Source of the DNA: an uncultured candidatus Porisulfidus sp.
GTDB taxonomy: Bacteria > Pseudomonadota > Gammaproteobacteria > Poriferisulfidales > Poriferisulfidaceae
Length of the DNA: 64,000 bases
Direction: 5' to 3'
Assembly (NCBI GenBank): GCA_965221375.1
Contig: OZ244883.1
Location: 892,409 to 956,408 of the forward strand
Below, one piece after another: positions 7,717 to 49,679 of this stretch. The notes below the pieces were generated by a model that saw only the letters and a list, made by a program, of their open reading frames with translations, ran no database searches and was not told the origin of the DNA. The translations under genes were made by a program, and so were the position numbers. The first letter of the stretch is position 1. Every line of letters begins with the position of its first letter.

Positions 7717-8907
<1,191 letters not shown>

Positions 8908-8935
8908 AACCGCATAACGTTACCGGATAGAGATC

Positions 8936-9322
8936 ATGGCCGCTGCAAAAGGAACTCCCGAGCGTAAAGCCGCCGCCAAAAAAGCGGCAAGCGCGAAGAG
9001 TGCATCGGGCCAAGCCAAAGCCTATAGCAGTTTGCGTTTGCGGCTGAAGGCATTTGATCATCGTCTGGTCGATCAGTCGGCTCGTGAAATCGTGGAAACG
9101 GCTCGCCGCACGGGGGCCAAAGTACATGGGCCGATTCCGTTACCGACACGCAAAGAGTTGTATACGGTACTGATTTCCCCGCATGTCGACAAGGATGCCC
9201 GTGATCAGTATGAGGTACGTACGCACAAGCGGGTAATCGATATCGTCAACCCGTCCGAAAAAACCGTCGATGCGCTGATGAAGCTGGATTTGCCGGCCGG
9301 CATCAGTGTGCAGCTGAAATAG
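8936..9322 (+). CDS. rpsJ: 30S ribosomal protein uS10 (NusE) with ~27-aa Ala/Lys-rich N-terminal extension
   Basis: [32 protein letters not shown]. Confidence 0.97.
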
Positions 9323-32979: not shown

Positions 32980-33102
32980 ATTCGGTGGGGGTGAATCCGG
33001 ATAAATTCTTCGCACTCCCTAATTTGGGGTAGGGCTTGACTTGTGTTAGAATCCGCGAAACCAATTTTTGCCTTCGCCAGATTTCAATTGCTCGTTCCTC
33101 CG

Positions 33103-34302
33103 ATGCGAAGGATTTCCTCTTTATATTCACTAGCGCGAACCCAGCGCGGCGTTCGGAGGGAATTTTTCGTATTAGTGTTGCTGGCGTGTTGGATGGTGTT
33201 CACTGACGTGTGGGCAACAATTCCTCCACCATCGCCACCACCGCCGGTGACAAACCCGCGGCCGACACCGCCGAGCGTGACGGCCAATGCGGGTCCTGAC
33301 CAAACAGTAACCGGGGGCAGTCTGGTGCAGTTGAGTGGCACGACGGGGGCGGGGATCAGCGTGAGTTGGAGCCAGGTTGCCGGTCCTACAGTGGCACTGA
33401 GCAGTCTCTCATCGTCGGCGCCGACATTCCAGGCGCCGGCCACGAGTTCAAGCACGCAGACGTTGACGTTTCGTTACACTGCCAGCAGAAACTGGAGTTG
33501 GTGCCGCCGCTATGCACCTATTGGTGGTGGCTGTGCTGATACTGTCCACGAAACGGAAACAGCTTCGGATACAGTGGACGTGGTGGTACCTCCACCACCC
33601 TTGATTGCGGAGGCGGGTCCGGCACAAACAGTGGATTCGGGGACATTGGGGACGCTGTCGGGCTCGGCGAAAGGGGGCGAAGGGACGAGAAGTTACGCGT
33701 GGACGCAGACGGAGGGCTTGCCGATGGTGTTGCTTAGCGGTGCGGACCAAGCGAGCGCGAGTTTCACAGCGCCGCTGGTGACGGCACGCACAACGCTGAC
33801 GTTTAAGTTGACGGTTACGGCCGGGAGTGAAATATCAACGGATACCGTTCAAGTCACTGTGGCGGGCCCTGAGGTAGTGAGCGTGGCATTTACCTCTCGT
33901 CCTGCGGCAGGTAACACCTACAGGCTTGGCGAACGGATTCGCTCTCGGGTTGCGTTCGACAGGATTATGACTGTGTCCGGAAGCCCTGTATTGGCGTTGG
34001 AGATTGGCACACAAACCCGTTCGATGACGCATATAGGACTGACCAGAAGTCGAGTGTTGGATTTTGAATATCAGGTACAGGCATCGGATTTGGATACAGA
34101 TGGTATAAGCGTGGGTGAAAACGCGCTTTCCGTGTTGGCAGACACCTCAATAACCGACCATTTCGGTCGTCCGGCCATGCTGAGTTTGTCTGGTCACGAG
34201 ATCGTAAATCAGGCAGCTCGAAAAGTGGATGGGAGCCAGAGTTCGACTTTGCCAACAGGGGGGACTTTGCCTGCCTGCACTATGACCACTCCGGTTCTCT
34301 AG
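33103..34302 (+). CDS. Secreted PKD/Ig-like repeat protein (adhesin/adaptor), paralogue 1
   Basis: Signal peptide ending VWA, Pro-rich linker, two A.AGPDQTV..W.Q..GP.V.L PKD-like repeats, C-terminal Ig-like domain (TY..GE.I...FEYQVQASDLDTDGI). Confidence 0.75.
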   Translation: MRRISSLYSLARTQRGVRREFFVLVLLACWMVFTDVWATIPPPSPPPPVTNPRPTPPSVTANAGPDQTVTGGSLVQLSGTTGAGISVSWSQVAGPTVALSSLSSSAPTFQAPATSSSTQTLTFRYTASRNWSWCRRYAPIGGGCADTVHETETASDTVDVVVPPPPLIAEAGPAQTVDSGTLGTLSGSAKGGEGTRSYAWTQTEGLPMVLLSGADQASASFTAPLVTARTTLTFKLTVTAGSEISTDTVQVTVAGPEVVSVAFTSRPAAGNTYRLGERIRSRVAFDRIMTVSGSPVLALEIGTQTRSMTHIGLTRSRVLDFEYQVQASDLDTDGISVGENALSVLADTSITDHFGRPAMLSLSGHEIVNQAARKVDGSQSSTLPTGGTLPACTMTTPVL

Positions 34303-34432
34303 TTAGTAACTCGTTGTTGTGAAACTGCCCCTACGGAATAAGAAAGAGAAGCGAGGGACACTGGCGGGTAGCGCCGGAGGCTTGGGGCGGGCCGCTAGGC
34401 ACTTACGCCGGATTTCTCCTTTGTGTTTGCCG

Positions 34433-35905
34433 ATGTGTGTTGGTTGCGTTGTTGGAAGAAAATTTTTTGTGTGGGCGGTGCTGGTGGGCTGGATGGGGGT
34501 GGCCGACGTGCAGGCGGGAATTCCAGTGCCAAATCCGCCACCACTAGCGACGTATCCGACTCCGCCACCGCCGAGCATAATGATTGATGCGGGTATGGAT
34601 CAGACGGTGTCCGGAGGGAGCGTGGTGCAGTTGAGTGGCACAACGACAGGAGATAGCGCGAGTTGGAGTTTGAGTTGGAGTCAAACGGCCGGCACGACGG
34701 TGGCGTTGGAAAATCCCTCGTCATCATCGCCAACGTTTCAGGCGCCGGGTGTGAGTTCAAATCCCCAAGTGTTGACGTTTCGCTACGCTGCGAGTAGGGA
34801 TTGGAGTTGGTGCCGTCGTGAGGTGTCTGGTTCCTGCGTTGATACTGTCTACGAAACGTCGACGACTTCGGACATAGTGGATGTGACGGTAAGAGCGAGT
34901 CTGTCGGTAGTGGTGGAATCATATCAGACAGTGGGGTCGGGGGTGTCGGTATCGCTGTCGGGTTTGGCGACGGGAGGCAGCGAAACGAAGAGTTACACAT
35001 GGGTGCAGATGGGAGGATCATCAACGGTTGTACTCAATAATGCGAATCAGGCATCTGCGTATTTCACGGCGCCGACGGTGGCGGCACGTGCGACTCTGTC
35101 GTTCCAGTTGACGGTGACGGCGGGGAGCGAGATGTCGACGGACGTGGTGGACGTGTTGGTGTTGCCGCCGCCCGTCGTTGCGGAGGCGGGTTTGGCACAA
35201 ACGGTGGAATCAGGGGCATCGGTGACATTGTCAGGTTTGACGACATGGGGTGAAGGCTTAAAGAATTACTCGTGGGTGCAGACGGGCGGTTGGCCGACAG
35301 TGGCGCTCAGTGACGCAGACCAGATGTCGGTGAGTTTTATGGCACCGACGGTGGTGGTAATGACGGAGTTGGATTTCGCGCTGACGGTGGCGGACTTGTC
35401 GGGTTCGTCAACGGACACGGTGCGGGTGACGGTGTCGGCGAAGCCACCACAGGTGACGGGCTTATCGCTGGCATCGCGGCCAATATCAGGAGACAGGTAC
35501 AAGCAGGGAGAGACGATTCGAGTGCAGGTATGGCTGTCGGAGTTGGCAGTGGTGTCGGGGTCGCCGCAATTGGCGCTGGAGGTGGGTAATCAGACGCGGA
35601 CGATGAGTTACACAGGATTGGACCGGGCGCGAGTATTGGAGTTTGATTACACGGTGCAGGCATCGGACACGGATATAGATGGAGTCAGCGTTTGGAGCGG
35701 CGCGTTAAGTCTACCGTCAGGAGCATCGTTGATGGGAGAGGCTGGAGGAGTGGTGGGAGTGGACCTGTCGGCTCATGCAATTTTGAACGCTTCGGGACAC
35801 AAAGTGGATGGGGAACAGTCTGCGGTGTCGCCGTTGCCGAATCTGAATGAGTGTTCGAAGGAGGAGGTGAGTGTATTGAATCTTCCGGATCAGGGGAGCG
35901 ACTGA
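34433..35905 (+). CDS. Secreted PKD/Ig-like repeat protein (adhesin/adaptor), paralogue 2
   Basis: Signal peptide ending VQA, three PKD-like repeats plus same C-terminal Ig-like domain; stop overlaps RHS start (TGATG); start codon uncertain. Confidence 0.75.
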   Translation: MCVGCVVGRKFFVWAVLVGWMGVADVQAGIPVPNPPPLATYPTPPPPSIMIDAGMDQTVSGGSVVQLSGTTTGDSASWSLSWSQTAGTTVALENPSSSSPTFQAPGVSSNPQVLTFRYAASRDWSWCRREVSGSCVDTVYETSTTSDIVDVTVRASLSVVVESYQTVGSGVSVSLSGLATGGSETKSYTWVQMGGSSTVVLNNANQASAYFTAPTVAARATLSFQLTVTAGSEMSTDVVDVLVLPPPVVAEAGLAQTVESGASVTLSGLTTWGEGLKNYSWVQTGGWPTVALSDADQMSVSFMAPTVVVMTELDFALTVADLSGSSTDTVRVTVSAKPPQVTGLSLASRPISGDRYKQGETIRVQVWLSELAVVSGSPQLALEVGNQTRTMSYTGLDRARVLEFDYTVQASDTDIDGVSVWSGALSLPSGASLMGEAGGVVGVDLSAHAILNASGHKVDGEQSAVSPLPNLNECSKEEVSVLNLPDQGSD

Positions 35906-38900
35906 TGGGGTCGCGCTCGTTGGTTTTTCTGTTCCAAGCGGTAGCGGGCGTCTTGCTGCTGGGGGCGGAGACGGTATCCGCGGCGGCAGTATCGGGAACG
36001 TTGGATGGTGCGTTGTCGGTAGATCAGACGGGTTCGGCGGGGTATACGGTTCCAGTTGAGGTTCCGCCGGGGACGGCGGAGATGCAACCGTCGTTGTCGC
36101 TGTCGTACAACAGCAATGGTGGCAACGGGCTACTGGGTCAGGGTTGGACGCTGCAGGGCTTGTCCACGATCAGCCGTTGCCCGAAGACGAAGGCGCAGGA
36201 CAATGTGCGGGGGACGATCAATTACGATGCGGACGACCGGTTCTGCCTGGACGGGAGCCGCCTGATTGCGGTGCACGGGACATATGGGTCGAGTGGCGCG
36301 GAATATCGGACCGAGCTTGACAGTTTCGCGAAGGTGATTTCGATGGGCACAGTGGAGGGTGGTCCTCAGTATTGGGTGGTGTGGACAAAGTCGGGCCAGA
36401 AGATGGAGTATGGAAGAACGACATCATCGCGAGTAGAAGCGACGGGCCAATCGGCCGTGCGGCAGTGGAAGTTGAATCGGGTGGAAGATACGCTCGGGAA
36501 CTATCTGACGGTGACGTATATCGAGGCTGCGACGGACGGTTTTGCGTATCCGAGCCGAATCGACTACAGCGGTCACCAACAGGGGAACGTGAACCAGGCG
36601 CCGTATGCATCGGTACGTTTCAGTTACGAAGACCGACACGACGACATTGTGCTGATGCATGGTGGGCATAGGGTCAGCGTGGACAAGCGCTTAACCCATG
36701 CCAAGACCTACATTGGCGAGACGCTGGTCTCGGACTACCGACTGAGTTATTCTTCTACTGGTTTGCCTTACCCTTCGAGGATCGTTGGCATCCAGCGATG
36801 TGACGGGATGGGGGACTGCCTGCCGGGTGCCGATATGACGTGGAACAGTTTGGGCACGGGCACGATGAGTTCGGCGGAGCAGTTACGTTACATTGGTCAA
36901 ATCGACAGTTTTGTGGTCACGGGTGATTTTTCCGGCACCGGGCGGGAGCGTCTCTGGTTTACGAGGGCGCCTTCGGGGTACGCCGGATACGAACCGCTGG
37001 TTGGCGACTACGATGGGGATGGGGATTCGGACATTGCTTGGGTGAAGGCATCAAGCGCGGGGTTCTACTTTTATCTGAACGGAAGTTCGAGGAAAGTGTC
37101 AAGCGGATACTACGACGGCTATACCCCCCGGACAGGTGATTTCAACGGAGATGGTCGCACCGATGTGATCTGGACAAAGAAGAAAAGATATAGTTTCGGG
37201 TGGTGGGGTTTTACATACGTGTCCACGAATGTTTATATCAAAGTGGCACTGAGCAACGGTTCAGGTATCGGAGCCCCAATCCATATGGTGCGGGGCTTCA
37301 GTGGAGAACCCAACAGTTACGAAACCCAAGTCGGAGATTTCAATGGCGACGGTTTGTCCGATCTCGTTTGGAGCCGGGCCTACAATGGCGGCATTCAGAC
37401 CTACGTCAGTTTGGGCGACGGCTCAGGGGGACTTGGCGCACCAACGTTTACTGCAGTGAAGGCCACCGGAGACCACACGGGCTATAAGGCCGCGGTTCTA
37501 GATTTCAATGGCGATGGGCTTTTGGACATGGTCTGGACGAAAAGCCAAAACGGGGGTTTGCGCGCCTATGCGGCGATGGGGAAAGGTGACGGTAGTTTTG
37601 GATCGGTGCAGTATAGCGCACCTCGCACATCGGGAAATTACAGTGGCTATGAGTCGTTAATCGGAGACTTCAACGGAGATGGGTTAATGGATTTGGCGTG
37701 GGCCACGAAATCTAATTCCAGCCGGCATGTCAGCGTGTCTTTTGGGGACGGAACAGGTTTTTTTCAAGCGGCACATGATAGTTCAATTGGTTCGCTTCGC
37801 AGTCAAAGAGAGGACATTTTGAATGTCAATCATACCCAATCGCCGGTAGCCATCGACTTTGACGGAGACGGGGTTTCCGAAATCTTCTGGAGGTCTTGGA
37901 TCAGGTACAGATATACGTATACATCTACATATCAAACTCCTTTTAGTTGTCCGGGGGTGTGGATATCGCAATATACCTGCAGGGCAGAATTTTCCTTTAA
38001 AAGAAATACTTGGGCGGTTCATTATGCAACCAGCACAGTTCCGAAGGGCTATGGCCGGATTGCCACGATTGATACGGGCAATGGGACGACGTTTAATATG
38101 GAATATGAGTCTCTATCGGCGAGTTCCGTGAATATTTATACCAAGGACAGTGACGACGACCTGTGCAGTTTGCCGTGCCGCGATATTCAGATGCCTCTCC
38201 AAGTGGTCAAGGAGGTCATAAAGGACCATGGTGATGATCTGACGGAGCAGATCAGTTATCGATATGGAGGCGCAAAAACGGACCTCAATGGGCGGGGATT
38301 CAAGGGTTTCCGATGGATGGAGTTGACAGACGTACGGACTGGCATCGTTTCCCGTACCGAATATCAGCAAGATTTCCCTTATATCGGACAAGTCAAATCA
38401 AGCAGCCGCTACGTTGATACCTCCCCTCAGACCCTTCTGCATACGGAGGCCAACACCTGGGCAAGCCTTTCTCTGAACGACGGTAAGACGCAGTTTCCAT
38501 ATATTTCATCAAGTGCGGCGGCAACCTACGAGATGGAGGCTGGGCCGGGTAACAGTGCGGTGACGACAGTGACGAACGCGAGTAGCTACGACAGTTACGG
38601 CAACCCGATTGAGATCACGGTGACGACAACGGGAGCGGGAGGCACGTACCGGAAGGTGACGACGAACACTTACACGAATACGATGGTGAACTGGCGTCTG
38701 GGCCGTCTGGCGTGTGCGCAGGTGCGTTCGGAGACACCGACGGTGGCGGTGACACGGACTTCGGGGTTCGCCTACAGTTCGGTGACGGGACTGTTGACAA
38801 AGGAAGTGGTTGAACCGAGTCCGGGAGTGATCAGCGGGTGCGTGTCGGCATTGTCGGCAGCGGAGTTGAAGGACATATCCTTGATCACGACGTACCAGCA

Positions 38901-41900
38901 CGATGCTTACGGGAATCGCCGACAGTCGACGATTCGTGGAGGTGGGATCACCTCGCGTTCGAGTGCGACGGTGTGGGGCGAGCGGGCCAGTTGCGGAGCG
39001 GTGACGGCAAATGGACGTTTTCCCGTATCGGTGAGCAACGCGCTGGGCCATGTGGCAGAGAGTTGGTATTCGGGGGCGTTTGGAAAGTTGCTGCAGAGTC
39101 GGGACGCGAACGGGCTGGAGTTGCGTCAGGAGTATGACGGTTTTGGGCGCCTGATTCGTGTGGTGCATGCAGACGGTCGACAGGAGGTGGTGCAGTATCG
39201 GGACTGCACGGACATGGGCTTGTCTTGTCCCCCTCAAGCGGTGCGAGCAATTTTGACGGACCGCACGGGAGCGGCGTCGGTAATCAGTTATGTGGACCGG
39301 CGAGGCTTGGTAGTGCGCACGGAGACGGAAGGTTTTGATGGGACGGCAGTGTATCAGGACACGGAGTATGACGCGGCGAGCCAAGCCGTGCGGAAGTCGC
39401 GGGCGTATTACGCGGGAGAGGCGGCGCAGTGGAGTCAATACACTTATGACAAGTTGGGCCGGGTGAAGAGCGAGACGTTGCCGAATGGGAGTGTGACGAC
39501 GACGAATTATGACGGATTGGTAGGAGGTTGGATTCAGCAGCGGGTGAGCGTGCAGGTCTCAAGTACAGCGACGGCACGGACGACGACGCGAGAGTACGAC
39601 GCGCGGGGTATGACGGTACGGATGATTGATCCGCTGGGGAGCGAGACGCGTTTCGAGTATACGGAGTATGGCAAGCAGAAAAAGGTGACGGCGGCGAACG
39701 GTTCGGTGACGGAGCGGAGTTTCGATTTGCGGGGGCGGCTGCTGTCGGAGACGGATCCGGACCGAGGGATGCGGACGTACCGCTACAACGCACTGGACGA
39801 ATTGGTATCGAAGACGAATGCGCGGGGTCAGACGACCACATTTGTGTATGACTTGCTGGGTCGATTGGTGCGGCGATCGGAGGCGGAAGGCACGACGGTG
39901 TGGGTGTATGACGCCTCAAGCACGGGCAAAGGTCGCCTGGCGCAGGTGTCGGGTCCGGATGGCTATTTGCGCACGCATGCGTATGACGCCTATGGGCGCC
40001 CGTTGAGAGAGACAGCGACAATTGGAAGGGAGCGTTTTACGACGGCCCGAACGTATGACGCGGCAGGTCGGGTGGCGACGACAACTTATCCAGGGAGTGG
40101 GCTGGTGGTGCGTCATGAGTATACGGCGACGGGCTACTTGGAGAAAGTTCGAAAGGATGCTTCGTGCGGGACGGTGTATTGGACGGCGGAAAAGGTGGAT
40201 GCGGAAGGTCGGGTAGAGGAGTCGCTACTAGGCAATGGAGTAGGCACAACACGAGTGTTCGATCCGCTGACGGGTTTGGTTCAGAGCATCCAGTCGGGTT
40301 TGGGCGAGACCTCGGGGGTGCAGGATTTGGGGTATGTGTTCGATGCGTACGGAAACTTGACCATGCGGGAAGATTTCGCGCAGGATGTGTATGAGAGTTT
40401 CACGTATGACACGCTGAACCGGTTGACAGGTTCGGAGCTGAAGAACGCGGGGACGGAGGCGTTATTAGCGAACAAAAATTATCGCTACGATGCGGTGGGG
40501 AATCTGATAAACAAGTCGGATGTGGGGGCGGCAGACTATGTTTATGGGGCGGGCGATGCGGGTCCGCATGCGGTAACGTCGGCGGGGGACTATGTCTATA
40601 TTTACGATGCCAGCGGAAATATGGTGTCGGGAGCCGGACGGACGCTGACATGGACGAGCTTCCAGAAGCCGCGAACGATAGCGAAAGGGTCGACCGTGAG
40701 CACGTTTGAGTATGGGCCGGACCGGGGACGGGTAAGGCAGGTGAAAGTGAAGGGCGCGGTGACGGAGATTCTCACTTATGTGGGCGGGCTGTATGAGCGG
40801 GTGGAAAAGACGGGTTCGGCGATGGAGCATGTGCACTACGTGTTCGCAGGAGGGGCGCGGGTTGCAATAGAGACGGCGAGCGAGTCGGCGGGCTCAAACG
40901 TGAAGTTGCGCTATCTGCACATGGACCACTTAGGTTCAGTGGATGTGGTAACAAACGAGTTGGGAGAGGTTGTGGAACGGCTGTCTTTTGGAGCGTTTGG
41001 AGAACGGCGGGTTGCGCAGGGCACGGCCACTTGGCAGGACTTGGCACTGGCATTATCTTCAGCGGAAACGCGGCGGGGTTTCACTGGCCACGAGCAACTG
41101 GACGACTTTGGTTTGGTGCACATGAACGGGCGAGTGTATGACCCGCACTTGGGGCGTTTCCTCAGTGCGGATCCATTTGTACAGTTTGCCCTTTCGTCGC
41201 AGGGCTACAACCGCTATACCTACGCCGGCAACAACCCGTTGTCGTATACCGACCCCAGCGGATATTTCATTAAGTCGCTGTTCCGCAAAGTCGCGAGGTT
41301 GGTCAAGAAGGTTTTCAAAAGTTCGGTGTTTCGAACCGTCGCTGCGGTGGCGTTTGCTGTTTATGGGGGGCCAGCTGGAGCAAAGTTGCTAGGCATGGCG
41401 GAAAGTGCTTTCGTGGAAGGTGCGATCGGAGGGTTCGGGGCAGGATTAATTTCAAGCGGAGGCGATATCAAGTCGGCCTTTGTTGGAGGATTGAGTGGGG
41501 GCGCGTTGGGATTTGTTGGAGGCAGTGAATTATTTGAGCTGGCATCAAGTCGCGCAGTCGCGCATGGTGCCGTTGGTGGGGTTTCCTCAGAGTTGATGGG
41601 TGGCAAGTTCGGGGAAGGATTCTTGTCGGCAGGGTTCTCAAGTCTGGCGGCTCCCCAGATAGACAAATTTAATTTCGACGAAAAGGCAGCCCGTATGATA
41701 ACGACGGCTGTTGTCGGTGGTACAGCGTCTGTACTCGCTGGCGGGAAATTCGCCAATGGGGCAAAAACCGCTGCCTATCTGCAATTGTTTGTGGAAATTG
41801 CAAACTTTTATGCAGTTTATACGGGCACAACCGCAGATTGGCGCCCAGGGAAAAATTACGAAAAAACTAAATTTAAAGTTGTGGACGAGAGGAATGGCTT

Positions 41901-42249
41901 TTACATGCAGGATTTCAGAGACCTTCCAGCCGATGCTAACACCGTCGGTAGAAATCTAGATATAGGAGACGCGTTTTGTGTCCAAGGTGACGCTTGCAGT
42001 AGATTTCTGAATGAGATCCCGGGCATCAATGCGACCTCCAAATTCCATGACCGTATCATGAGTTCTGCTGAATACGGGGCAAAATATGGTGCTATTACTG
42101 GTGTTCAGGCAACATTGCTTGATGGCCAGGTTTTCAATTTTGCAACCATGCTTCCCAGTGCCGCAATCGCTTACAGTGCGATAGCGGGAGAAAATATAAG
42201 AGGGTGGCATCGCAGCGCTCTGGCTTGGCATCATGTTCGGGATAAATAA
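35905..42249 (+). CDS. Secreted SpvB/FG-GAP/TcdB-midN/RHS polymorphic toxin (Tc B-C fusion-like), 2114 aa
   Basis: Signal peptide MGSRSLVFL..TVSA; SpvB-type PSLSLSYNSNGGNGLLGQGW..RFCLDG; 7 DFNGDG repeats; GRGFKGF; many YD repeats; RHS core RGFTGHEQLD..MNGRVYDP..RFLSADP..NPLSYTDPSG. Confidence 0.92.
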   Translation: MGSRSLVFLFQAVAGVLLLGAETVSAAAVSGTLDGALSVDQTGSAGYTVPVEVPPGTAEMQPSLSLSYNSNGGNGLLGQGWTLQGLSTISRCPKTKAQDNVRGTINYDADDRFCLDGSRLIAVHGTYGSSGAEYRTELDSFAKVISMGTVEGGPQYWVVWTKSGQKMEYGRTTSSRVEATGQSAVRQWKLNRVEDTLGNYLTVTYIEAATDGFAYPSRIDYSGHQQGNVNQAPYASVRFSYEDRHDDIVLMHGGHRVSVDKRLTHAKTYIGETLVSDYRLSYSSTGLPYPSRIVGIQRCDGMGDCLPGADMTWNSLGTGTMSSAEQLRYIGQIDSFVVTGDFSGTGRERLWFTRAPSGYAGYEPLVGDYDGDGDSDIAWVKASSAGFYFYLNGSSRKVSSGYYDGYTPRTGDFNGDGRTDVIWTKKKRYSFGWWGFTYVSTNVYIKVALSNGSGIGAPIHMVRGFSGEPNSYETQVGDFNGDGLSDLVWSRAYNGGIQTYVSLGDGSGGLGAPTFTAVKATGDHTGYKAAVLDFNGDGLLDMVWTKSQNGGLRAYAAMGKGDGSFGSVQYSAPRTSGNYSGYESLIGDFNGDGLMDLAWATKSNSSRHVSVSFGDGTGFFQAAHDSSIGSLRSQREDILNVNHTQSPVAIDFDGDGVSEIFWRSWIRYRYTYTSTYQTPFSCPGVWISQYTCRAEFSFKRNTWAVHYATSTVPKGYGRIATIDTGNGTTFNMEYESLSASSVNIYTKDSDDDLCSLPCRDIQMPLQVVKEVIKDHGDDLTEQISYRYGGAKTDLNGRGFKGFRWMELTDVRTGIVSRTEYQQDFPYIGQVKSSSRYVDTSPQTLLHTEANTWASLSLNDGKTQFPYISSSAAATYEMEAGPGNSAVTTVTNASSYDSYGNPIEITVTTTGAGGTYRKVTTNTYTNTMVNWRLGRLACAQVRSETPTVAVTRTSGFAYSSVTGLLTKEVVEPSPGVISGCVSALSAAELKDISLITTYQHDAYGNRRQSTIRGGGITSRSSATVWGERASCGAVTANGRFPVSVSNALGHVAESWYSGAFGKLLQSRDANGLELRQEYDGFGRLIRVVHADGRQEVVQYRDCTDMGLSCPPQAVRAILTDRTGAASVISYVDRRGLVVRTETEGFDGTAVYQDTEYDAASQAVRKSRAYYAGEAAQWSQYTYDKLGRVKSETLPNGSVTTTNYDGLVGGWIQQRVSVQVSSTATARTTTREYDARGMTVRMIDPLGSETRFEYTEYGKQKKVTAANGSVTERSFDLRGRLLSETDPDRGMRTYRYNALDELVSKTNARGQTTTFVYDLLGRLVRRSEAEGTTVWVYDASSTGKGRLAQVSGPDGYLRTHAYDAYGRPLRETATIGRERFTTARTYDAAGRVATTTYPGSGLVVRHEYTATGYLEKVRKDASCGTVYWTAEKVDAEGRVEESLLGNGVGTTRVFDPLTGLVQSIQSGLGETSGVQDLGYVFDAYGNLTMREDFAQDVYESFTYDTLNRLTGSELKNAGTEALLANKNYRYDAVGNLINKSDVGAADYVYGAGDAGPHAVTSAGDYVYIYDASGNMVSGAGRTLTWTSFQKPRTIAKGSTVSTFEYGPDRGRVRQVKVKGAVTEILTYVGGLYERVEKTGSAMEHVHYVFAGGARVAIETASESAGSNVKLRYLHMDHLGSVDVVTNELGEVVERLSFGAFGERRVAQGTATWQDLALALSSAETRRGFTGHEQLDDFGLVHMNGRVYDPHLGRFLSADPFVQFALSSQGYNRYTYAGNNPLSYTDPSGYFIKSLFRKVARLVKKVFKSSVFRTVAAVAFAVYGGPAGAKLLGMAESAFVEGAIGGFGAGLISSGGDIKSAFVGGLSGGALGFVGGSELFELASSRAVAHGAVGGVSSELMGGKFGEGFLSAGFSSLAAPQIDKFNFDEKAARMITTAVVGGTASVLAGGKFANGAKTAAYLQLFVEIANFYAVYTGTTADWRPGKNYEKTKFKVVDERNGFYMQDFRDLPADANTVGRNLDIGDAFCVQGDACSRFLNEIPGINATSKFHDRIMSSAEYGAKYGAITGVQATLLDGQVFNFATMLPSAAIAYSAIAGENIRGWHRSALAWHHVRDK
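36920..37890 (+). repeat. Seven FG-GAP/VCBS repeats (integrin-like beta-propeller) inside the RHS gene
   Basis: GDFSGTG, GDYDGDG, GDFNGDG x3, LDFNGDG, IDFDGDG each followed by D/E-hydrophobic-hydrophobic-W (first repeat degenerate). Confidence 0.85.
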
Positions 42250-42256
42250 TAGGCTC

Positions 42257-42604
42257 ATGGTTTGTTATAGATTTCCCGGAAGACCTGACAGGCGTTTCCT
42301 AAGTGTGATGCTACTAGCATATTTGCTGCTGCCGGCATTACTGTCTTGCGACATGACACCGACTCACGAAGCTTTTCTTAGTTTTCATGAAAGCGATGTG
42401 GGCCGAGAAATGGAGGAGGTTTACTCTGGCACTTACATTGTGCCTTATATGCTGGAGGGAAAGATTTTGCCTAATGGCAATTCAGAATACGGATTTGCGC
42501 GTAGAGGGACATGCGAAGTATATTACGAAGTTGATCCAGAAACGAGGATTATTGTTGCTTGGAGATGGCAAGGATTAAAAGAGGATTGTATTCACGGCGG
42601 CTAA
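42257..42604 (+). CDS. Putative cognate immunity lipoprotein
   Basis: 7 nt after toxin stop; hydrophobic stretch ending LLS-C lipobox-like; small mature domain LPNGN..C.VYYEVDP....WRWQG..DC. Confidence 0.65.
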   Translation: MVCYRFPGRPDRRFLSVMLLAYLLLPALLSCDMTPTHEAFLSFHESDVGREMEEVYSGTYIVPYMLEGKILPNGNSEYGFARRGTCEVYYEVDPETRIIVAWRWQGLKEDCIHGG

Positions 42605-42732: not shown

Positions 42733-44256
42733 TTAATATAACTTTTTCGCACACAAAAAACAGAAAGCAAGTGCCAGCAATGACAATACTGCAAACGGCC
42801 ATTCTCCTAGCCGAACATAAGGAGTGACCCCGTCTCGAGATTGCACTTCTCCTTCCAGAATTACTCTTTTGAACAGCGGTGTTGTTTTCTCGACGGACCC
42901 ATCCGCTCTAATAATAGCAGTGACTCCACCATTCGCAGCGCGAAGAAGGTCCCGCCCTGTTTCTATGGCACGGAGCCGATTTGCTTCCAAGTGCTGCCAC
43001 GGCCCTCGGCTATAACCGAACCACGAGTCGTTGCTGACGTTAATCAAATAAGCCGCATCGGGAAAGGAGAGGCGGGTGATTTCCGGGTAGATTGATTCGT
43101 AGCAGATCGACACGCCAACAGGGTGATTATGTATTTGAAGTAGCGGCCTGTCCTGTGAAGATTCCAAATTATTCATTCTAAAATCCATTTGTCGATAGAT
43201 TGGTTCTAGCCAGTCTGCCAACGGCGTATATTCCCCAAGTGGAACCAAACGCCGTTTCCCGTAACGTTGATTTGTCTTAATATTTATCAACCCTGCATGA
43301 AACTGAGACGGGCTTTCCCCTAAGTAAAACGTACCTGACAGGAGAGTCGCATCGGCATCCAAGATATCAGTTGCTATCATTTGATAATAAGAGGCGACTT
43401 CCACATAAAACTTTGGGATTGCTCCTTCTGGCCAAATAATTACAGGTGTTTTTGCCACTTGCCGCGTCATGTTTTGATAAGTCTGCATGATCAGTTCCAT
43501 GTTTTGTTCCCGCCATATGACGCCTTGATCCAGGTTAGCCTGAATTAAAGCCACCTGCACAGGTTCTCCCAACGGCTTGCTCCAAGATATATGGCGCACG
43601 CTTTCGCCACCCACGATAATGAGTGCCACAGCACTTAACCAAACGACACGCATAGAGGAATTCCGTTGCAGACATCCGACAAACCACCCCATCGACAACA
43701 AAAGTATCAGGCCCGTCCCATAGACACCCACCAAGGGCAAGTAGCCGGCCCAAGGACTGTCCAATCCTCCTTGCCCGAATAAAACCCAAGGAAATCCATG
43801 CAATACCGTTCCTCTCGTCCATTCGGATACGGCTAGGAGTACAGCCACGGTAGTCAAGCGGCGTAAGCCTTTCGGGAACAAGCGAGCCCCCAACCACGCG
43901 GCAAGCATCGGATACAAGGATAGGTAGAATATTAGAGTTATCGTGATAGCCAGTGATAGCCATAGAGGTGTGTCGGCGTGGTTGTATAAACCGGAAGCGA
44001 TCCAGTAAGTACCACAGCCGAAATATCCGATGCCAAACAACCAGCCACGTTGCGCGGCGGTTTTCCCCAAGCTTGAATTGATAATATAGAAAAACATAAT
44101 GAGTCCGATCCAGAGTGCCGGGCGAAAGGCATATGGAGCAAAACCAAATGAGGCAACAACGCCGCCACTCACAGCGCATGCATGCCCCCAAAGCGGGCTC
44201 TTAAATCTCCGCATTAAATTGGGGGAGTCGGATGATTCCATGCCGTATTCAGGCAA
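42733..44256 (-). CDS. lnt: Apolipoprotein N-acyltransferase, second copy
   Basis: GFPW, WPEG, YGKRRLVPLGEY, ICYE, SNDSWFG; collinear with the copy at 31477; start may be a downstream Met. Confidence 0.93.
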   Translation of the reverse strand: MPEYGMESSDSPNLMRRFKSPLWGHACAVSGGVVASFGFAPYAFRPALWIGLIMFFYIINSSLGKTAAQRGWLFGIGYFGCGTYWIASGLYNHADTPLWLSLAITITLIFYLSLYPMLAAWLGARLFPKGLRRLTTVAVLLAVSEWTRGTVLHGFPWVLFGQGGLDSPWAGYLPLVGVYGTGLILLLSMGWFVGCLQRNSSMRVVWLSAVALIIVGGESVRHISWSKPLGEPVQVALIQANLDQGVIWREQNMELIMQTYQNMTRQVAKTPVIIWPEGAIPKFYVEVASYYQMIATDILDADATLLSGTFYLGESPSQFHAGLINIKTNQRYGKRRLVPLGEYTPLADWLEPIYRQMDFRMNNLESSQDRPLLQIHNHPVGVSICYESIYPEITRLSFPDAAYLINVSNDSWFGYSRGPWQHLEANRLRAIETGRDLLRAANGGVTAIIRADGSVEKTTPLFKRVILEGEVQSRDGVTPYVRLGEWPFAVLSLLALAFCFLCAKKLY

Positions 44257-46783: not shown

Positions 46784-48460
46784 GTGGAGGAGAACATCGG
46801 TGAGTTGCTAGTTGAGAGTGGGTATTTGAAGCCTGCGGACCTTGATCGGGCGATGAGATTGCGCGCGGGTAGCGGTCAGCGGTTAAGTAGCCTTCTCGTA
46901 TCACTAGGCCTGATTAAAGAAGAGGATTTGGCTCATGTGCTGGCTGAGGAATTGGCCCTCGATATTACTCCAGCCGAAGACTACCGTAATTTTTCAGAAA
47001 TCAAGGGTCTGATCTCCCCAGATTTTTTGCGACAGGTTCAAGCAGTTCCTATTTCGGGACAAGATGGGCAGATCAAAATCGCGATTGCCAATCCATTTGA
47101 CAAATACGCTGTTGACGCCCTGCAGCTTGCATTGGGCCATCCCGTTTCCGTTCAGGTAGGACGAGTCTCCGAGATAGAAGCCGCTATTGAAAAATGCTAT
47201 GGGGACTCGTCGCCTATGGCGCAGATCACCGCTCAGACGGGCGAGCATTATCGACAGGATGCGGACGATATTCAACACTTACGGGATTTGGCCAGCGAGG
47301 CCCCGATTATTCGGGCAGTGAATCTCTTGATTTCTAAAGCTTTGAGCAAACATGCTTCAGATATCCACATCGAACCGTTCGATGGGACTCTCAAAGTGCG
47401 CTATCGCCTGGATGGTGTATTGCGTGACGTTGAAGCTCCTCCGGCGCGCTCGGCGGATGCCATTCTTTCGCGGATCAAGGTGATGGCAGATCTTAATATT
47501 GCGGAACGACGGTTGCCTCAGGATGGACGGATCATGATGCGGTTTGAAGGGAGAGAGGTAGATGTTCGCATTTCATTCATTCCGACGGCGCACGGGGAAA
47601 GCGTTGTGTTAAGGCTTTTGGACCGAGAGGCGACACCGTTGGACTTCCGTTCTCTGGGTTTTCAGGAACAGGTTCTTCCCCAGTTTGGGCGCCTGTTGGA
47701 GAGGCCGCAAGGTATCGTTTTGGTCACAGGACCAACGGGCAGTGGGAAAACAACGACGATATACACAGTACTGCAGAAACTCAATACTCCAGAAGTCAAA
47801 ATCTTAACAGTTGAAGATCCGGTCGAATACCGGATGGAAGGTGTCAACCAAGTACACGTTCGTCCTGATCTGGGACTTACCTTCGCCCATGCGTTGCGCT
47901 CTTTTCTGCGACAGGACCCAGATATCATCATGGTAGGAGAGATGCGCGATTTGGAGACGGCCAAGATAGCCGTACAGTCTGCTCTGACGGGCCATAAAGT
48001 TTTTTCTACACTTCATACTAATGACGCAGCCAGCAGTATCACGAGGTTATTGGATATGGGTGTTGAGGACTACCTGGTAAGTTCGACGGTAAACGGAATC
48101 GTGGCACAGAGATTGGTACGCACGCTCTGCCCGCATTGCAAGCAACCGCATAAAGATGCGAACGCGATTATCAAAGCCTTAGGCTTGGAGCGTGAGGACG
48201 CCGACCCGGAACTGTATCAAGCGGTGGGGTGTGAGCAATGTGACGAGACAGGCTATAAGGGGCGCACCAGCATTGTTGAATTGCTAACAATGACGGACCG
48301 CTTGAGACAAGCAATTTTAGAGAGCAGTGATGCGTCGCGCCTCCGCAATATCGCAAGAGAAGAAGGGGTTTTAAGCCTACGGGAAGACGGACTTCATAAA
48401 GCCATGCTGGGAGTAACGACGGTAGAGGAAGTAGACCGGGTCACTCGCGGGTCCGAATAG
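46784..48460 (+). CDS. gspE: T2SS ATPase
   Basis: AERRLPQDG, GPTGSGKTT, TVEDPVEY, LRQDPD..GEMRD, CPHC..CEQC. Confidence 0.96.
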   Translation: MEENIGELLVESGYLKPADLDRAMRLRAGSGQRLSSLLVSLGLIKEEDLAHVLAEELALDITPAEDYRNFSEIKGLISPDFLRQVQAVPISGQDGQIKIAIANPFDKYAVDALQLALGHPVSVQVGRVSEIEAAIEKCYGDSSPMAQITAQTGEHYRQDADDIQHLRDLASEAPIIRAVNLLISKALSKHASDIHIEPFDGTLKVRYRLDGVLRDVEAPPARSADAILSRIKVMADLNIAERRLPQDGRIMMRFEGREVDVRISFIPTAHGESVVLRLLDREATPLDFRSLGFQEQVLPQFGRLLERPQGIVLVTGPTGSGKTTTIYTVLQKLNTPEVKILTVEDPVEYRMEGVNQVHVRPDLGLTFAHALRSFLRQDPDIIMVGEMRDLETAKIAVQSALTGHKVFSTLHTNDAASSITRLLDMGVEDYLVSSTVNGIVAQRLVRTLCPHCKQPHKDANAIIKALGLEREDADPELYQAVGCEQCDETGYKGRTSIVELLTMTDRLRQAILESSDASRLRNIAREEGVLSLREDGLHKAMLGVTTVEEVDRVTRGSE

Positions 48461-48467
48461 AAACGTG

Positions 48468-49679
48468 ATGAAATTTCAGTATAAGGCGGCCTCTCAGTCC
48501 GGGGAAGTGCTGGAGGGGGTGCTGGATGCCGAAGATGAGAAAACTGCAGTCCAGAGAATCCAGGCACAGGGCCACGTGCCTATCCTTGTCGAGAAAGCTA
48601 AGCCAGTATCGAAGAAGCGCTCCGGTTTGATTGGAACTCGTTTCAGGGGACGTTTGAGAGATACTGATATGTTTTGTATAGAACTGGCTACTTTGCTGAA
48701 GGCAGGGTTACCCTTGAGTCAGGCTCTCGAAATTCTTGCCGGGATGCTCAAAAATCAACTGATTGGAGAAGTTGTCGAGGATATTCAGTTGCAGGTCCGC
48801 AAAGGAGAGCGTCTGTCTTCGGCCTTAGGGCGGCACCCCAAAGTTTTTACTAGCATGGATTTAAGCATGGTGCGTACGGGAGAGGCCAGCGGCAATTTAA
48901 CCGCTGCGCTGGAACGAATCGCCGGTTTTCGAAAGCGGGCTAGAGAGGTTCGCGAGGCTCTCGCCTCGACTCTAATTTATCCCATTATCCTTTTAGTCTT
49001 TGCCGGTATCTCGCTAGTCGTCATTTTGGGTGTGGTTATTCCGAAAATCTCAGCGTTGTTCGCCGATGCAGGGCATGAATTACCCATGATTACCCAGTTG
49101 GTTGTTGGTGTTGGTGATTTCGTGCAAAACTGGTGGTGGGCTGGGCTGATTATCTTGTTTTCTGGGGCGTTATATCTGCGCTTGAGATTAGGGACGGCGA
49201 TTTTTCGGATGGCATGGGACCGCCGACTATTGACCATCCCAGTTCTGGGGATGTGGCTTTCGAAATACGAAACAGCAAAATTCACAAGAATTTTAGGCAC
49301 CTTACTGCAGAACGGCATGACATTGTTGGATGCTGTGGAGGTGGCTCGCGATGTTGTGGTCAACACGCATATCAAATCCGGCATTTCCAGGGTAATTACA
49401 GAAATCAGGCAGGGGCACGGATTTTCAATCCCACTCTTGGACGCAGGAGTCTTTCCCAAGTTGGCAACAGATCTAGTGCAGGTGGGTGAGAAAACAGGGA
49501 GCCTCGACGAAATGCTGCTAGAAGTCGCTCATATTTATGAGCGGGATACCCAGCAGCAAATCAAGCAGATAATGAGCGTGTTAAGCCCGGTACTGATTCT
49601 TTTTCTTGCGGTTTTGATCGGTGTAATTGTGATGTCTGTTCTCGTTGCTGTTCTTGGGGTCAATGAGCTCGCATTCTAA
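48468..49679 (+). CDS. gspF: T2SS inner-membrane platform protein
   Basis: LATLLKAGLPL, GEASGNL, LIYP, GEKTGSLDEML; three TM segments. Confidence 0.95.
   Translation: MKFQYKAASQSGEVLEGVLDAEDEKTAVQRIQAQGHVPILVEKAKPVSKKRSGLIGTRFRGRLRDTDMFCIELATLLKAGLPLSQALEILAGMLKNQLIGEVVEDIQLQVRKGERLSSALGRHPKVFTSMDLSMVRTGEASGNLTAALERIAGFRKRAREVREALASTLIYPIILLVFAGISLVVILGVVIPKISALFADAGHELPMITQLVVGVGDFVQNWWWAGLIILFSGALYLRLRLGTAIFRMAWDRRLLTIPVLGMWLSKYETAKFTRILGTLLQNGMTLLDAVEVARDVVVNTHIKSGISRVITEIRQGHGFSIPLLDAGVFPKLATDLVQVGEKTGSLDEMLLEVAHIYERDTQQQIKQIMSVLSPVLILFLAVLIGVIVMSVLVAVLGVNELAF

What the first reader, a model, noticed from the sequence alone, without database searches (positions are those of the whole stretch)
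41251..42604. Uncharacterised ~328-aa payload and lipoprotein immunity pair
Seen: after PLSYTDPSG come a basic amphipathic helix (FIKSLFRKVARLVKKVFK), a long Gly/Ala hydrophobic region ending GGKFANGAKTAA, and a terminal domain with C.QGD.CS..LNEIPGINATSKFHD and a hydrophobic tail. A lipobox-bearing 115-aa gene starts 7 nt later. Established: DPxG marks the RHS aspartyl autoprotease cleavage site, and periplasm-facing immunity implies a toxin acting from outside the cytoplasm. Inference: a membrane-active or periplasmic toxin with no nuclease or ADP-ribosyltransferase motif that I can recognise.
Basis: partly seen in the sequence, partly recalled or inferred. Interest (0 to 1): 0.7.

Follow-up and report, generated by a model that had tools for sequence, protein, structure and literature searches.

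The report
Two-part RHS toxin tip, lipoprotein antidote
The end of a giant bacterial RHS toxin carries a widely shared, membrane-seeking delivery segment followed by a rare, uncharacterised toxin domain that always travels with its own small lipoprotein antidote: an ordinary kind of bacterial weapon with a new warhead.

Summary
The 328 residues after DPSG are not one payload. Residues 1-~175 are a cationic amphipathic helix plus a Gly/Ala-rich GxxxG region ending in GGKFANGA. This module sits directly after DPxG in many SpvB/TcdB-type RHS proteins and is followed there by unrelated C-terminal domains, including M23 peptidase, Tlde1, lipase, HNH and colicin E5. Only residues ~176-328 are specific to this locus. 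They form a rare soluble helical domain with an invariant His-Asp. It has no Pfam, NCBIfam or PDB-sequence match and no Foldseek match in PDB or BFVD. The downstream lipoprotein is its partner: it follows all 10 toxin-domain copies that have downstream DNA, and it also occurs as an orphan immunity gene. Conserved paired cysteines in both proteins and the lipobox point to action in the periplasm. I read the locus as a TcdB/TcaC-class RHS polymorphic toxin with a new toxin/immunity family behind a generic pre-toxin delivery module. The biochemical target is unknown. An envelope-directed enzyme is my best guess.

The parts
35905..42249 (+). TcdB/TcaC-class (BC-fusion) RHS polymorphic toxin gene. 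The ORF is open from GTG 35851. The likely start is ATG 35905, followed by a Sec-type signal peptide (MGSRSLVFLFQAVAGVLLLGAETVSA).
   Evidence: Pfam finds SpvB (59-251), five FG-GAP repeats, TcdB_toxin_midN (719-830) and eight RHS repeats. NCBIfam finds YD repeats and Rhs_assc_core. ATG 35905 overlaps the upstream stop as TGATG and has GGGGAG 7-12 nt upstream.
41023..41262 (+). RHS-associated core (aspartyl autoprotease region), ending in the cleavage motif DPSG (41251-41262).
   Evidence: TIGR03696 covers residues 1725-1804 at E = 4.9e-18. The sequence reads ...GRVYDPHLGRFLSADP...NNPLSYTDPSG. Cleavage itself is inferred from the family.
41263..41337 (+). Cationic amphipathic helix at the new N-terminus of the released fragment (YFIKSLFRKVARLVKKVFKSSVFRT). 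It has 8 Lys/Arg and no Asp/Glu.
   Evidence: Composition is. Hydrophobic moment is 0.88 against 0.31 for shuffles. The helix is conserved as (F/Y)F.KKLFK..KK.FKK directly after DPSG in relatives. The only PDB match of the module profile is a cathelicidin-like peptide, and it is not significant (E = 2.3).
41338..41787 (+). Gly/Ala-rich GxxxG region (21% Gly, 19% Ala) with two copies of the motif VGG.(S/A)S.L.GGKF..G, ending GGKFANGAKTAA. Together with the helix it forms a shared pre-toxin or delivery module.
   Evidence: Exhaustive phmmer with the 328-aa C-terminal region gave 4319 proteins at E <= 1e-3. Most of the 150 listed matches cover only query residues 1-~180 and are followed by unrelated tails. 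The region has only sub-threshold similarity to DUF637/PF04830 (18.4 bits against a cut-off of 26.6). All 22 full-length carriers have an SpvB-like N-terminus.
41788..42246 (+). Locus-specific terminal toxin domain (about 150 aa) of a new, rare family. Invariant residues include Asn 42010-42012, His 42046-42048 and Asp 42049-42051. A Cys pair (CVQGDAC, 41977-41997) occurs in the subgroup that includes the window.
   Evidence: Alignments A2 and A3 give the invariant columns Y24, N91, H103, D104 and N133. The domain has no Pfam, NCBIfam or PDB sequence match. The AF2 model is helical with pLDDT 76 and pTM 0.71. Foldseek finds nothing in PDB or BFVD. The family is hydrophilic, with 0 or 2 Cys in 23 of 24 members.
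42257..42604 (+). Cognate immunity gene: a 115-aa lipoprotein with lipobox LLS-C. The mature protein starts Cys-Asp and has two further invariant Cys.
   Evidence: Homologues P0003-P0007 share the invariant lipobox Cys, HEAF, LPNGN.E and C.VYYEVDPETRIIV.WRW.G..C. The gene lies directly downstream of the toxin domain in 10 of 10 loci. No promoter-like or terminator-like site separates it from the RHS gene. It has no Pfam or NCBIfam match, and the AF2 model has no PDB fold match.
33043..35905 (+). Context only: two tandem paralogous genes for PKD-domain proteins with hydrophobic N-termini. The second has a stop codon overlapping the likely RHS start.
   Evidence: Both match K319L-like_PKD. They are 44-56% identical to each other. 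They are not conserved upstream of the RHS homologue in L009, so whether they belong to the system is open.

Best explanation
This is the C-terminal cassette of a Sec-exported, TcdB/TcaC-class (SpvB + beta-propeller + RHS cocoon) polymorphic toxin, together with its immunity gene. It is aimed at other Gram-negative bacteria.

The RHS aspartyl autoprotease cuts at DPSG(Y) and leaves a fragment of about 328 aa inside the cocoon. That fragment has two parts.

Part 1, about 175 aa, is a generic pre-toxin module of this RHS class. It consists of an antimicrobial-peptide-like cationic amphipathic helix followed by a glycine-zipper-like Gly/Ala region ending in GGKFANGA. I infer that it binds and permeabilises the target's envelope to carry whatever domain follows it across a membrane. 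It also seems to serve as the homology handle by which C-terminal cassettes are swapped.

Part 2, about 150 aa, is the actual toxin. It is a soluble, mainly helical domain, disulfide-bonded in this subgroup, with an invariant His-Asp and invariant Asn and Tyr residues. It acts in the periplasm. My best guess is that it is a hydrolytic enzyme on an envelope substrate (phospholipid, peptidoglycan or a lipid-linked precursor).

The 115-aa lipoprotein sits on the periplasmic face of a membrane and neutralises Part 2 by binding it.

Shown: the architecture, the modularity, the conserved pairing, and the lack of any known family match. Inferred: cleavage, compartment, delivery role and enzymatic nature.

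Sub-confidences: cognate toxin/immunity pair with a bipartite C-terminal region 0.85; periplasmic action 0.7; delivery role of Part 1 0.45; Part 2 is an enzyme using His-Asp 0.4.
For: Architecture: signal peptide, SpvB, FG-GAP, TcdB_midN, RHS repeats, and an Rhs core ending at DPSG.

Modularity:
- Exhaustive phmmer with the 328-aa C-terminal region found 4319 relatives. Most of the 150 listed matches cover only residues 1-~180.
- In 101 relatives the module begins at D(P/A/S)xG.
- Of 102 tails after the GGKFxNGA..LFN junction, a few match Pfam: Peptidase_M23 (2), Tlde1, Lipase_3, Mbeg1-like, eCIS_core, Tox-HNH-EHHH, Ntox44, Colicin_E5 and DUF6973. The great majority match nothing.
- All 22 full-length carriers are SpvB-type.

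Part 1 properties: 8 Lys/Arg and no acidic residues in the first 25 residues; hydrophobic moment 0.88; 21% Gly with many GxxxG motifs.

Recombination handle: orphan cassettes keep 3' portions of the module of varying length, and GC falls from about 58% to 46-50% starting inside it.

Pairing: the lipoprotein follows the terminal domain in the window, L002, L003, L004, L005, L007, L008, L009 and twice in L010. That is 10 of 10 toxin copies with downstream DNA. Three of these loci were found through the toxin, not the immunity gene. Orphan immunity genes occur in L001 and L005.

Compartment: the lipobox Cys is invariant, two further Cys are invariant in the immunity protein, and 23 of 24 toxin-domain sequences have 0 or 2 Cys.

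Solubility and a polar invariant site in Part 2.

Precedents: a glycine zipper is required for translocation of the Tde1 DNase (PMC10240207). The TcdB/TcaC class of polymorphic toxins with immunity proteins was defined by Zhang et al. 2012 (PMC3482391).
Against: - No biochemical evidence exists. The toxin domain matches no known fold (best Foldseek E = 4.2 in PDB and 1.5 in BFVD), and the model is of only moderate confidence (pLDDT 76, with residues 40-80 disordered).
- An invariant His-Asp could be structural or metal-binding rather than catalytic.
- Part 1 has never been tested. Its conservation could reflect packing in, or exit from, the cocoon, or recombination alone.
- Tails that follow Part 1 include enzymes acting in the periplasm and nucleases acting in the cytoplasm. 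A single delivery route is therefore not obvious.
- How the Sec-exported cocoon leaves the producer and opens at a target is unknown. No TcA, T6SS or other dedicated export genes are near it in the window.
- Many related sequences are short metagenomic fragments.
Confidence: 0.6

Rival explanations
1. The whole 328-aa fragment is one membrane-active toxin, a pore former or ionophore like Tse4, Tse5-CT, Ssp6 or the CdiA ionophores. The lipoprotein blocks it in the periplasm.
For: There is a cationic amphipathic helix and a GxxxG-rich region. The AF2 model of the terminal domain is all-helical. No enzyme fold was found. Pore formers can have periplasm-facing immunity proteins, as with Ssp6 and Sip6 (PMC6889166).
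Against: The helix and Gly-rich part are shared by many proteins with unrelated C-terminal domains and unrelated downstream genes. If that part were the killing activity, the specific immunity gene could not protect kin. The terminal domain is hydrophilic and has no transmembrane-strength segment in any of 24 members. Its invariant residues are polar. The module profile does not match any PDB chain, Tse5 included.
Confidence: 0.15
2. The terminal domain is a non-enzymatic periplasmic toxin. It would bind and sequester an essential envelope component, or insert shallowly into a membrane. Part 1 would still be a delivery module.
For: There is no match to any catalytic fold or family. The helical bundle is small and has a moderately hydrophobic conserved helix, TMLPAAAISY.A..G. 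Only one His and one Asp are invariant.
Against: The invariant Tyr, Asn, His-Asp and Asn persist across sequences only about 28-40% identical. That pattern is more typical of an active site. This remains hard to separate from the enzyme reading without experiments.
Confidence: 0.2
3. This is a Tc-type (insecticidal ABC-like) toxin aimed at eukaryotic cells. The downstream lipoprotein would be an unrelated neighbour or an accessory factor.
For: The N-terminal two-thirds are TcB/TcC-like: SpvB, beta-propeller, TcdB_midN and an RHS cocoon. Tc toxins target eukaryotes (PMC7861908).
Against: No ORF of TcA size exists in the 64-kb window; the largest other ORF is 938 aa and is UvrA. Tc loci were reported to lack immunity genes (PMC7861908). 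Here the lipoprotein co-varies with the toxin domain in 10 of 10 loci, occurs as an orphan immunity gene, and sits in arrays of orphan toxin/immunity cassettes typical of interbacterial polymorphic toxins. Sibling cassettes carry antibacterial enzymes such as M23 peptidase and Tlde1.
Confidence: 0.05

Closest known systems
TcdB/TcaC-class RHS polymorphic toxins (signal peptide + SpvB + integrin-like beta-propeller + RHS), as defined by Zhang et al. 2012 (PMC3482391)
   Same: The N-terminal architecture is the same, with an RHS cocoon, a DPxG autoprotease site, a variable C-terminal toxin, an adjacent immunity gene, and downstream orphan cassettes in related loci.
   Different: The toxin and immunity domains here match none of the Pfam or NCBIfam families tested. 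The conserved module of about 175 aa between DPxG and the toxin has no Pfam model of its own, and I found no description of it in the papers I read.
Tc toxin BC subunits (TcB-TcC, for example TcdB2-TccC3 of Photorhabdus)
   Same: SpvB, beta-propeller, TcdB_midN and an RHS cocoon enclose an autoproteolytically released hypervariable region of 200-400 aa.
   Different: This protein is a single fused polypeptide with a Sec signal peptide. No TcA is encoded in the window. An immunity gene is present, whereas Song et al. 2021 report none in Tc loci. The likely target is a bacterial envelope rather than a eukaryotic cytosol.
DUF637 / PT637 pre-toxin domain of CdiA (T5SS) proteins (PF04830)
   Same: It holds the same position just upstream of a variable toxin domain, it is Gly-rich, and both have a GG.F..G motif. 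Similarity to the last third of the Pfam model is weak.
   Different: The score is below the Pfam threshold (18.4 bits against 26.6). Only 3 of 11 members tested gave even a weak hit. The module lies after an RHS cleavage site rather than in a filamentous haemagglutinin. It also has an N-terminal cationic helix that is not part of the Pfam match.
Glycine-zipper translocation or pore segments of T6SS effectors (Tde1 N-terminus; Tse4, Tse5-CT)
   Same: Consecutive GxxxG motifs lie next to a toxin domain. For Tde1 the motif is required for membrane permeabilisation and entry (PMC10240207).
   Different: No sequence homology was detected; the module profile has no significant PDB match. The secretion context differs, since this is not a T6SS. 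Function here is untested.
Periplasm-acting effector/lipoprotein-immunity pairs such as Tle1-Tli1
   Same: A small periplasm-facing lipoprotein immunity gene lies directly downstream of a toxin that would act on the envelope.
   Different: There is no sequence or fold similarity to lipases, amidases, muramidases or their immunity proteins.

Membership tests
TcdB/TcaC-class RHS polymorphic toxin | Signal peptide followed by SpvB and an integrin-like beta-propeller | tested here: met
   SpvB covers residues 59-251 (E = 2.5e-17). FG-GAP and FG-GAP_3 each match five times, and TcdB_toxin_midN covers 719-830. A signal-peptide-like N-terminus follows ATG 35905; this was read by eye, not scored by a predictor.
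TcdB/TcaC-class RHS polymorphic toxin | RHS/YD repeats and an RHS-associated core ending in DPxG | tested here: met
   RHS_repeat scores E = 4.2e-35 with 8 stretches. TIGR03696 covers residues 1725-1804 and ends at DPSG.
TcdB/TcaC-class RHS polymorphic toxin | Autoproteolytic release of the C-terminal region | not testable with these tools
   Only the motif is present (YDPHLGRFLSADP...DPSG). Cleavage needs protein work.
TcdB/TcaC-class RHS polymorphic toxin | Polymorphic C-terminal toxin with a cognate immunity gene immediately downstream | tested here: met
   The lipoprotein follows the domain in 10 of 10 copies. Orphan immunity genes and orphan cassettes also exist. GC drops across the cassette.
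Tc (ABC) toxin complex | A TcA translocation subunit encoded with the BC component | tested here: not met
   No ORF of TcA size lies in the 64-kb window. Apart from the RHS gene, the largest ORF is 938 aa and is UvrA. A TcA gene elsewhere in the genome cannot be excluded.
Tc (ABC) toxin complex | No immunity gene, with a eukaryotic target | tested here: not met
   A conserved immunity-type lipoprotein is present. Tc loci were reported to have none (PMC7861908).
DUF637 / PT637 pre-toxin domain (PF04830) | Score at or above the Pfam gathering threshold of 26.6 bits | tested here: not met
   The score is 18.4 bits (E = 0.002) and covers only model positions 88-168. Among 10 relatives, two gave weak hits of 23.3 and 17.1 bits and eight gave none.
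Glycine-zipper pore or translocation segments (Tse5-CT, Tde1 N-terminus) | Consecutive GxxxG motifs in a hydrophobic segment | tested here: met
   There are 26 overlapping [GAS]xxx[GAS]xxx[GAS] matches, mostly within residues 28-160 of the C-terminal region, which is 21% Gly. No 19-residue window exceeds Kyte-Doolittle 1.6.
Glycine-zipper pore or translocation segments (Tse5-CT, Tde1 N-terminus) | Sequence homology to a characterised member | tested here: not met
   A profile of 23 modules searched against all PDB chains gave only a cathelicidin-like peptide at E = 2.3. phmmer with the 328-aa region found nothing relevant.
Glycine-zipper pore or translocation segments (Tse5-CT, Tde1 N-terminus) | Membrane permeabilisation or depolarisation | not testable with these tools
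   This needs liposome or whole-cell assays.
Secreted phospholipase A2-like toxins (helical, disulfide-bonded, His-Asp dyad). This was a lead from memory only. | Match to a PLA2 family model or fold | tested here: not met
   None of the 24 members gave a Pfam PLA2 hit at E <= 1. No PLA2 appears among the Foldseek PDB matches, where the best E is 4.2.
Known periplasmic immunity or inhibitor families | Sequence or fold match | tested here: not met
   There is no Pfam or NCBIfam hit. The AF2 model (pLDDT 71) gives a best Foldseek E of 0.22 with TM below 0.35.

The most novel reading that the evidence does not exclude
The cationic helix plus glycine-zipper module found directly after DPxG in SpvB-type RHS proteins could be a self-contained translocation device that needs no TcA. 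Once released from the cocoon, it would breach the target's outer membrane, and for nuclease cargoes the inner membrane too, pulling the attached toxin domain across. That would explain how this large, Sec-exported class of 'BC-only' toxins delivers cargo without a TcA channel, a T6SS or a CdiB/CdiA system. The terminal domain would in addition be a new envelope-targeting enzyme fold.
Probability: 0.25. Interest if true: 0.75.

Novelty: new member of a known kind. Interest (0 to 1): 0.5.

Why it matters
RHS polymorphic toxins are a main reservoir of new antibacterial activities, and this locus adds three things.

1. It adds a toxin/immunity family with no detectable relative among known families or solved folds. 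The toxin probably acts on the Gram-negative envelope from the periplasm, so it may point to a new target or chemistry.

2. The 'payload' of this RHS class has a conserved front half that Pfam does not model. The exhaustive search with the 328-aa region found 4319 relatives, and most listed matches cover only this half. Its antimicrobial-peptide-like helix and glycine zipper make a testable candidate for the missing step in how TcA-less SpvB/RHS cocoon toxins get cargo across a target membrane.

3. The great majority of the 102 domains found behind that module have no Pfam match. The junction motif GGKFxNGA..LFN is therefore a practical handle for mining further toxins.

This remains one more uncharacterised polymorphic-toxin cassette. 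Thousands exist, and nothing here breaks the known logic of such systems.

Tried and rejected
- **Sequence family searches of the 328-aa region, the terminal domain and the lipoprotein.** Pfam and NCBIfam gave nothing except a sub-threshold DUF637 hit.
- **PDB sequence searches.** I used phmmer and three profiles (toxin domain A2, module A6, single sequence). They returned only noise: ribosomal proteins, and a cathelicidin-like peptide at E = 2.3.
- **Fold searches.** The AF2 model of the terminal domain found nothing in PDB or BFVD. The AF2 model of the immunity protein found nothing in PDB.
- **Word-indexed homologue search with the terminal domain alone.** It returned one partial hit. The family became visible only through the exhaustive search and a profile search.
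- **The search for related loci with toxin alignments A2 and A4.** I used the immunity alignment instead, which gave only 2 loci each in the genome and metagenome collections.
- **Phospholipase A2-like His-Asp idea, recalled from memory.** Pfam and Foldseek do not support it, so I dropped it as a membership claim.
- **Single pore-forming payload.** I rejected this because the Gly-rich half is shared among cassettes with different toxins and different immunity genes.
- **Classical Tc toxin.** I rejected this because of the immunity gene, the orphan cassettes and the absence of TcA in the window.
- **Literature search for the motifs GGKFANGA, LHDYWFN and YEVDPETRIIV.** No paper holds them.
- **Source organism.** It could not be named. 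RpoA and SecY are singletons on a 1.64-Mb contig without names.
Full report
**1. What is in the sequence**

A single ORF runs from 35851 to 42249 on the + strand.
- The likely start is ATG 35905. It overlaps the stop of the upstream PKD-protein gene as TGATG and has GGGGAG 7-12 nt upstream. A Sec-type signal peptide follows it.
- Pfam finds SpvB (residues 59-251), five FG-GAP repeats, TcdB_toxin_midN (719-830) and eight RHS repeats.
- NCBIfam places the RHS-associated core at residues 1725-1804. This ends exactly at PLSYTDPSG, nucleotides 41251-41262.
- The stop codon is at 42247-42249, and an ATG 7 nt later (42257) opens a 115-codon ORF with lipobox LLS-C. No promoter-like or terminator-like site lies between the two genes.
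- GC content falls from about 58% in the RHS body to 46-50% across the distal C-terminal region and the small gene.

**2. The 328 residues are two modules**

I ran an exhaustive phmmer of the 328 residues against 1.84 billion representative proteins. It gave 4319 hits at E <= 1e-3 and 864 at E <= 1e-10.
- Most of the 150 listed matches cover only query residues 1 to about 180, and the proteins continue for another 100-220 residues.
- Only about 20 of the best 150 also match residues 180-328.
- In 101 relatives the shared part begins at D(P/A/S)xG, directly at the RHS cleavage motif.

Its alignment (A6) shows four conserved elements:
- a basic amphipathic helix, (F/Y)F.KKLFK..KK.FKK;
- a hydrophobic stretch;
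- GGF.GG...SGG.LKAA.IGG.TG.AFG;
- two copies of VGG..S...GGKF..G, the second ending GGKFANGA.T.AF..LFN(D/E/Q).

In the window, the first 25 residues have 8 Lys/Arg and no acidic residue. The hydrophobic moment is 0.88, against 0.31 for shuffles. Residues 26-175 are 21% Gly and 19% Ala with many GxxxG motifs, but no 19-residue window reaches transmembrane hydropathy.

Similarity to known families is weak.
- Pfam DUF637 matches below threshold: 18.4 bits against a cut-off of 26.6, over the last third of the model only. Two of ten other members also gave weak hits.
- Zhang et al. 2012 list DUF637 (PT637) as a pre-toxin domain of CdiA-type toxins (PMC3482391).
- A profile of the module has no significant PDB match. 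The only listed match is a cathelicidin-like antimicrobial peptide aligned to the basic helix at E = 2.3. That is not evidence of homology, but it describes the character of the helix well.

**3. What follows the shared module elsewhere**

I cut 102 tails after the last GG.F..G(A/S) motif and scanned them against Pfam. A few matched: Peptidase_M23 (2), Tlde1, Lipase_3, Mbeg1-like, eCIS_core, Tox-HNH-EHHH, Ntox44, Colicin_E5 and DUF6973. The great majority matched nothing.

The module therefore precedes unrelated toxins. Some act in the periplasm and some in the cytoplasm. Different downstream genes follow them, for example in L005, L009 and L010.

All 22 full-length carriers (1743-2694 aa) have an SpvB-like N-terminus. 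Four that I scanned in Pfam are SpvB/FG-GAP/TcdB_midN/RHS proteins. This is the 'TcdB/TcaC' class of polymorphic toxins described by Zhang et al. 2012: signal peptide, SpvB, integrin-like beta-propeller and RHS (PMC3482391).

Kin cells with different cassettes share this module, so it cannot be the activity that a cassette-specific immunity protein neutralises. I therefore read it as a pre-toxin module rather than as the toxin.

Orphan cassettes retain 3' portions of it of varying length, with HMM starts from position 40 to 116. The GC drop in the window also starts inside it. Both fit a second role as the homology handle for swapping cassettes.

**4. The locus-specific terminal domain**

Alignments of 24 and 22 sequences (A2 and A3) show a domain of about 150 residues. 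The consensus is ...EA..YY...VG..A...PGEN......NV.G.N......QGG..S..LN..PG.NAT..LHD.WFN......N.GTMLPAAAISY.A..GN..QGW..NP.
- Invariant residues are Tyr24, Asn91, His103-Asp104 and Asn133, in alignment numbering. His is at 42046-42048, Asp at 42049-42051 and Asn91 at 42010-42012.
Other members have a different pair or none, and 23 of the 24 have either 0 or 2 Cys.
- The family is hydrophilic (median GRAVY -0.45). No member has a 19-residue window above Kyte-Doolittle 1.6.

No known relative was found.
- There is no Pfam or NCBIfam match.
- There is no PDB sequence match, even with a profile.
- A profile search of 5.8 billion proteins returned only 26 hits, none carrying an informative name.
- An AF2 model built with 22 sequences has pLDDT 76 and pTM 0.71. 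It is helical, with a disordered stretch at residues 40-80.
- Foldseek found nothing in PDB (best E = 4.2, TM < 0.22) or in BFVD.

**5. The lipoprotein is the cognate partner**

Five homologues (38-56% identical) share the lipobox Cys, HEAF, LPNGN.E and C.VYYEVDPETRIIV.WRW.G..C, including two further invariant Cys.

Using local HMMs on all fetched loci, I found the immunity family at 13 places.
- In 10 of the 12 that can be assessed, the terminal toxin domain lies directly upstream: the window, L002, L003, L004, L005, L007, L008, L009 and L010 twice.
- L001 and a second copy in L005 are orphan immunity genes. L001 sits among housekeeping genes on a 198-kb contig.
- L006 lies at a contig edge and cannot be assessed.
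- Conversely, all 10 toxin-domain copies with downstream DNA are followed by the lipoprotein.
- L004, L009 and L010 were found through the toxin, not the immunity gene, so they are an independent test.
- L009 is a full-length 2091-aa SpvB/RHS protein with the same domain and partner, followed by orphan cassettes.
- One metagenomic protein (P0045) joins the module directly to an immunity-like lipoprotein, as if the toxin had been deleted.

The immunity AF2 model has pLDDT 71. It shows a signal helix, one short helix and a small beta-sheet. It has no PDB fold match.

**6. Mechanism**

*Shown:*
- the architecture;
- the two-module structure of the C-terminal region;
- the conserved toxin/immunity pairing;
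- the extracytoplasmic signatures, which are the lipobox, the paired Cys and the Sec signal on the RHS protein.

*Inferred, with my confidence in each:*
- The core autoprotease cuts at DPSG(Y).
- The lipoprotein protects in the periplasm, so the terminal domain acts there (0.7).
- The cationic helix and glycine zipper bind and permeabilise the target envelope to carry the toxin domain across (0.45). The precedent is the Tde1 glycine zipper, which is required for membrane permeabilisation and entry (PMC10240207).
- The terminal domain is an enzyme using the invariant His-Asp on an envelope substrate (0.4).

The last point is the weakest. A periplasm-facing immunity protein also fits a pore former: the pore former Ssp6 has an outer-membrane-anchored immunity protein, and the phospholipase Tle1 has an outer-membrane lipoprotein (PMC6889166). 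The hydrophilic composition and polar invariant residues tip me towards an enzyme or specific binder.

How the cocoon leaves the producer and opens is unknown. The window holds no TcA-sized ORF and no T6SS genes.

**7. Comparison and novelty**

The system belongs to a known kind, the TcdB/TcaC-class RHS polymorphic toxins with immunity genes (PMC3482391). It differs from insecticidal Tc toxins, for which no immunity genes were found (PMC7861908).

Two things are new:
- the toxin and immunity families, which match no Pfam, NCBIfam or PDB entry; no paper in the library holds their motifs;
- the recognition that the 'long Gly/Ala region' is a widespread pre-toxin module specific to this RHS class and not modelled in Pfam.

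I rate it a new member of a known kind, with interest 0.5. The most novel reading still open is that the module is a TcA-independent translocation device (probability about 0.25).

Noticed in passing
window 31477..32979 (+) and 42733..44256 (-): Two apolipoprotein N-acyltransferase (lnt) paralogues, 50% identical and in opposite orientation, flank the island of two PKD genes, the RHS gene and the immunity gene. The first lies in the usual miaB-phoH-corC-lnt arrangement. A second lnt next to a lipoprotein immunity gene is unusual and unexplained.
   Followed up: partly
window 33043..34302 and 34319..35905 (+): Two tandem paralogous genes (44-56% identical) encode proteins with K319L-like PKD domains and hydrophobic N-termini. 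They lie directly upstream of the RHS gene, and the stop of the second overlaps the likely RHS start (TGATG). They may be accessory or adhesion partners, but no such gene is called upstream of the RHS homologue in L009.
   Followed up: partly
protein P0045 (336 aa): This metagenomic protein joins the shared pre-toxin module, after GGKFANGAATAAFMQTSTEAASYY, directly to an immunity-like lipoprotein sequence (...LFLASCGLDPHDNF...LPNGNIE...CRVFYEFDPDTRIIVSWRFEG..DC). The toxin domain appears to have been deleted.
   Followed up: no
L001 10001..10342 (ENA ERZ25069412, 198-kb contig): An orphan copy of the immunity lipoprotein sits among housekeeping genes (glycolysis genes, pcnB, folK, panBC) with no RHS or toxin gene within 10 kb upstream or about 4.5 kb downstream, where the contig ends. 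This looks like stand-alone protection against neighbours' toxin.
   Followed up: partly
L010 1..5181 (ENA ERZ18545484): A 3452-aa relative combines LRR and fibronectin-III domains with SpvB, FG-GAP, TcdB_midN and RHS. It ends in the same module and terminal toxin domain. It is followed by the immunity gene, a second cassette with a different toxin, and another copy of this toxin/immunity pair whose immunity ORF (8725..9042) the gene caller missed.
   Followed up: partly
window 42257..42604: The mature lipoprotein would begin Cys-Asp. Asp at +2 is the inner-membrane retention signal in E. coli, a rule I recall from memory. Homologues have Gly, Ala or Ser at +2, so membrane placement may differ between family members.
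   Followed up: no
window 46784..49679 (+): Genes for T2SSE- and T2SSF-family proteins (a type II secretion or type IV pilus ATPase and platform protein) lie about 4 kb downstream of the cassette. I found no evidence linking them to export of the RHS protein.
   Followed up: no
RpoA and SecY of the window are singleton 90%-identity clusters on a 1.64-Mb contig present in NCBI and ENA without names. The two lnt sequences as I delimited them are not in the protein collection.
   Followed up: partly
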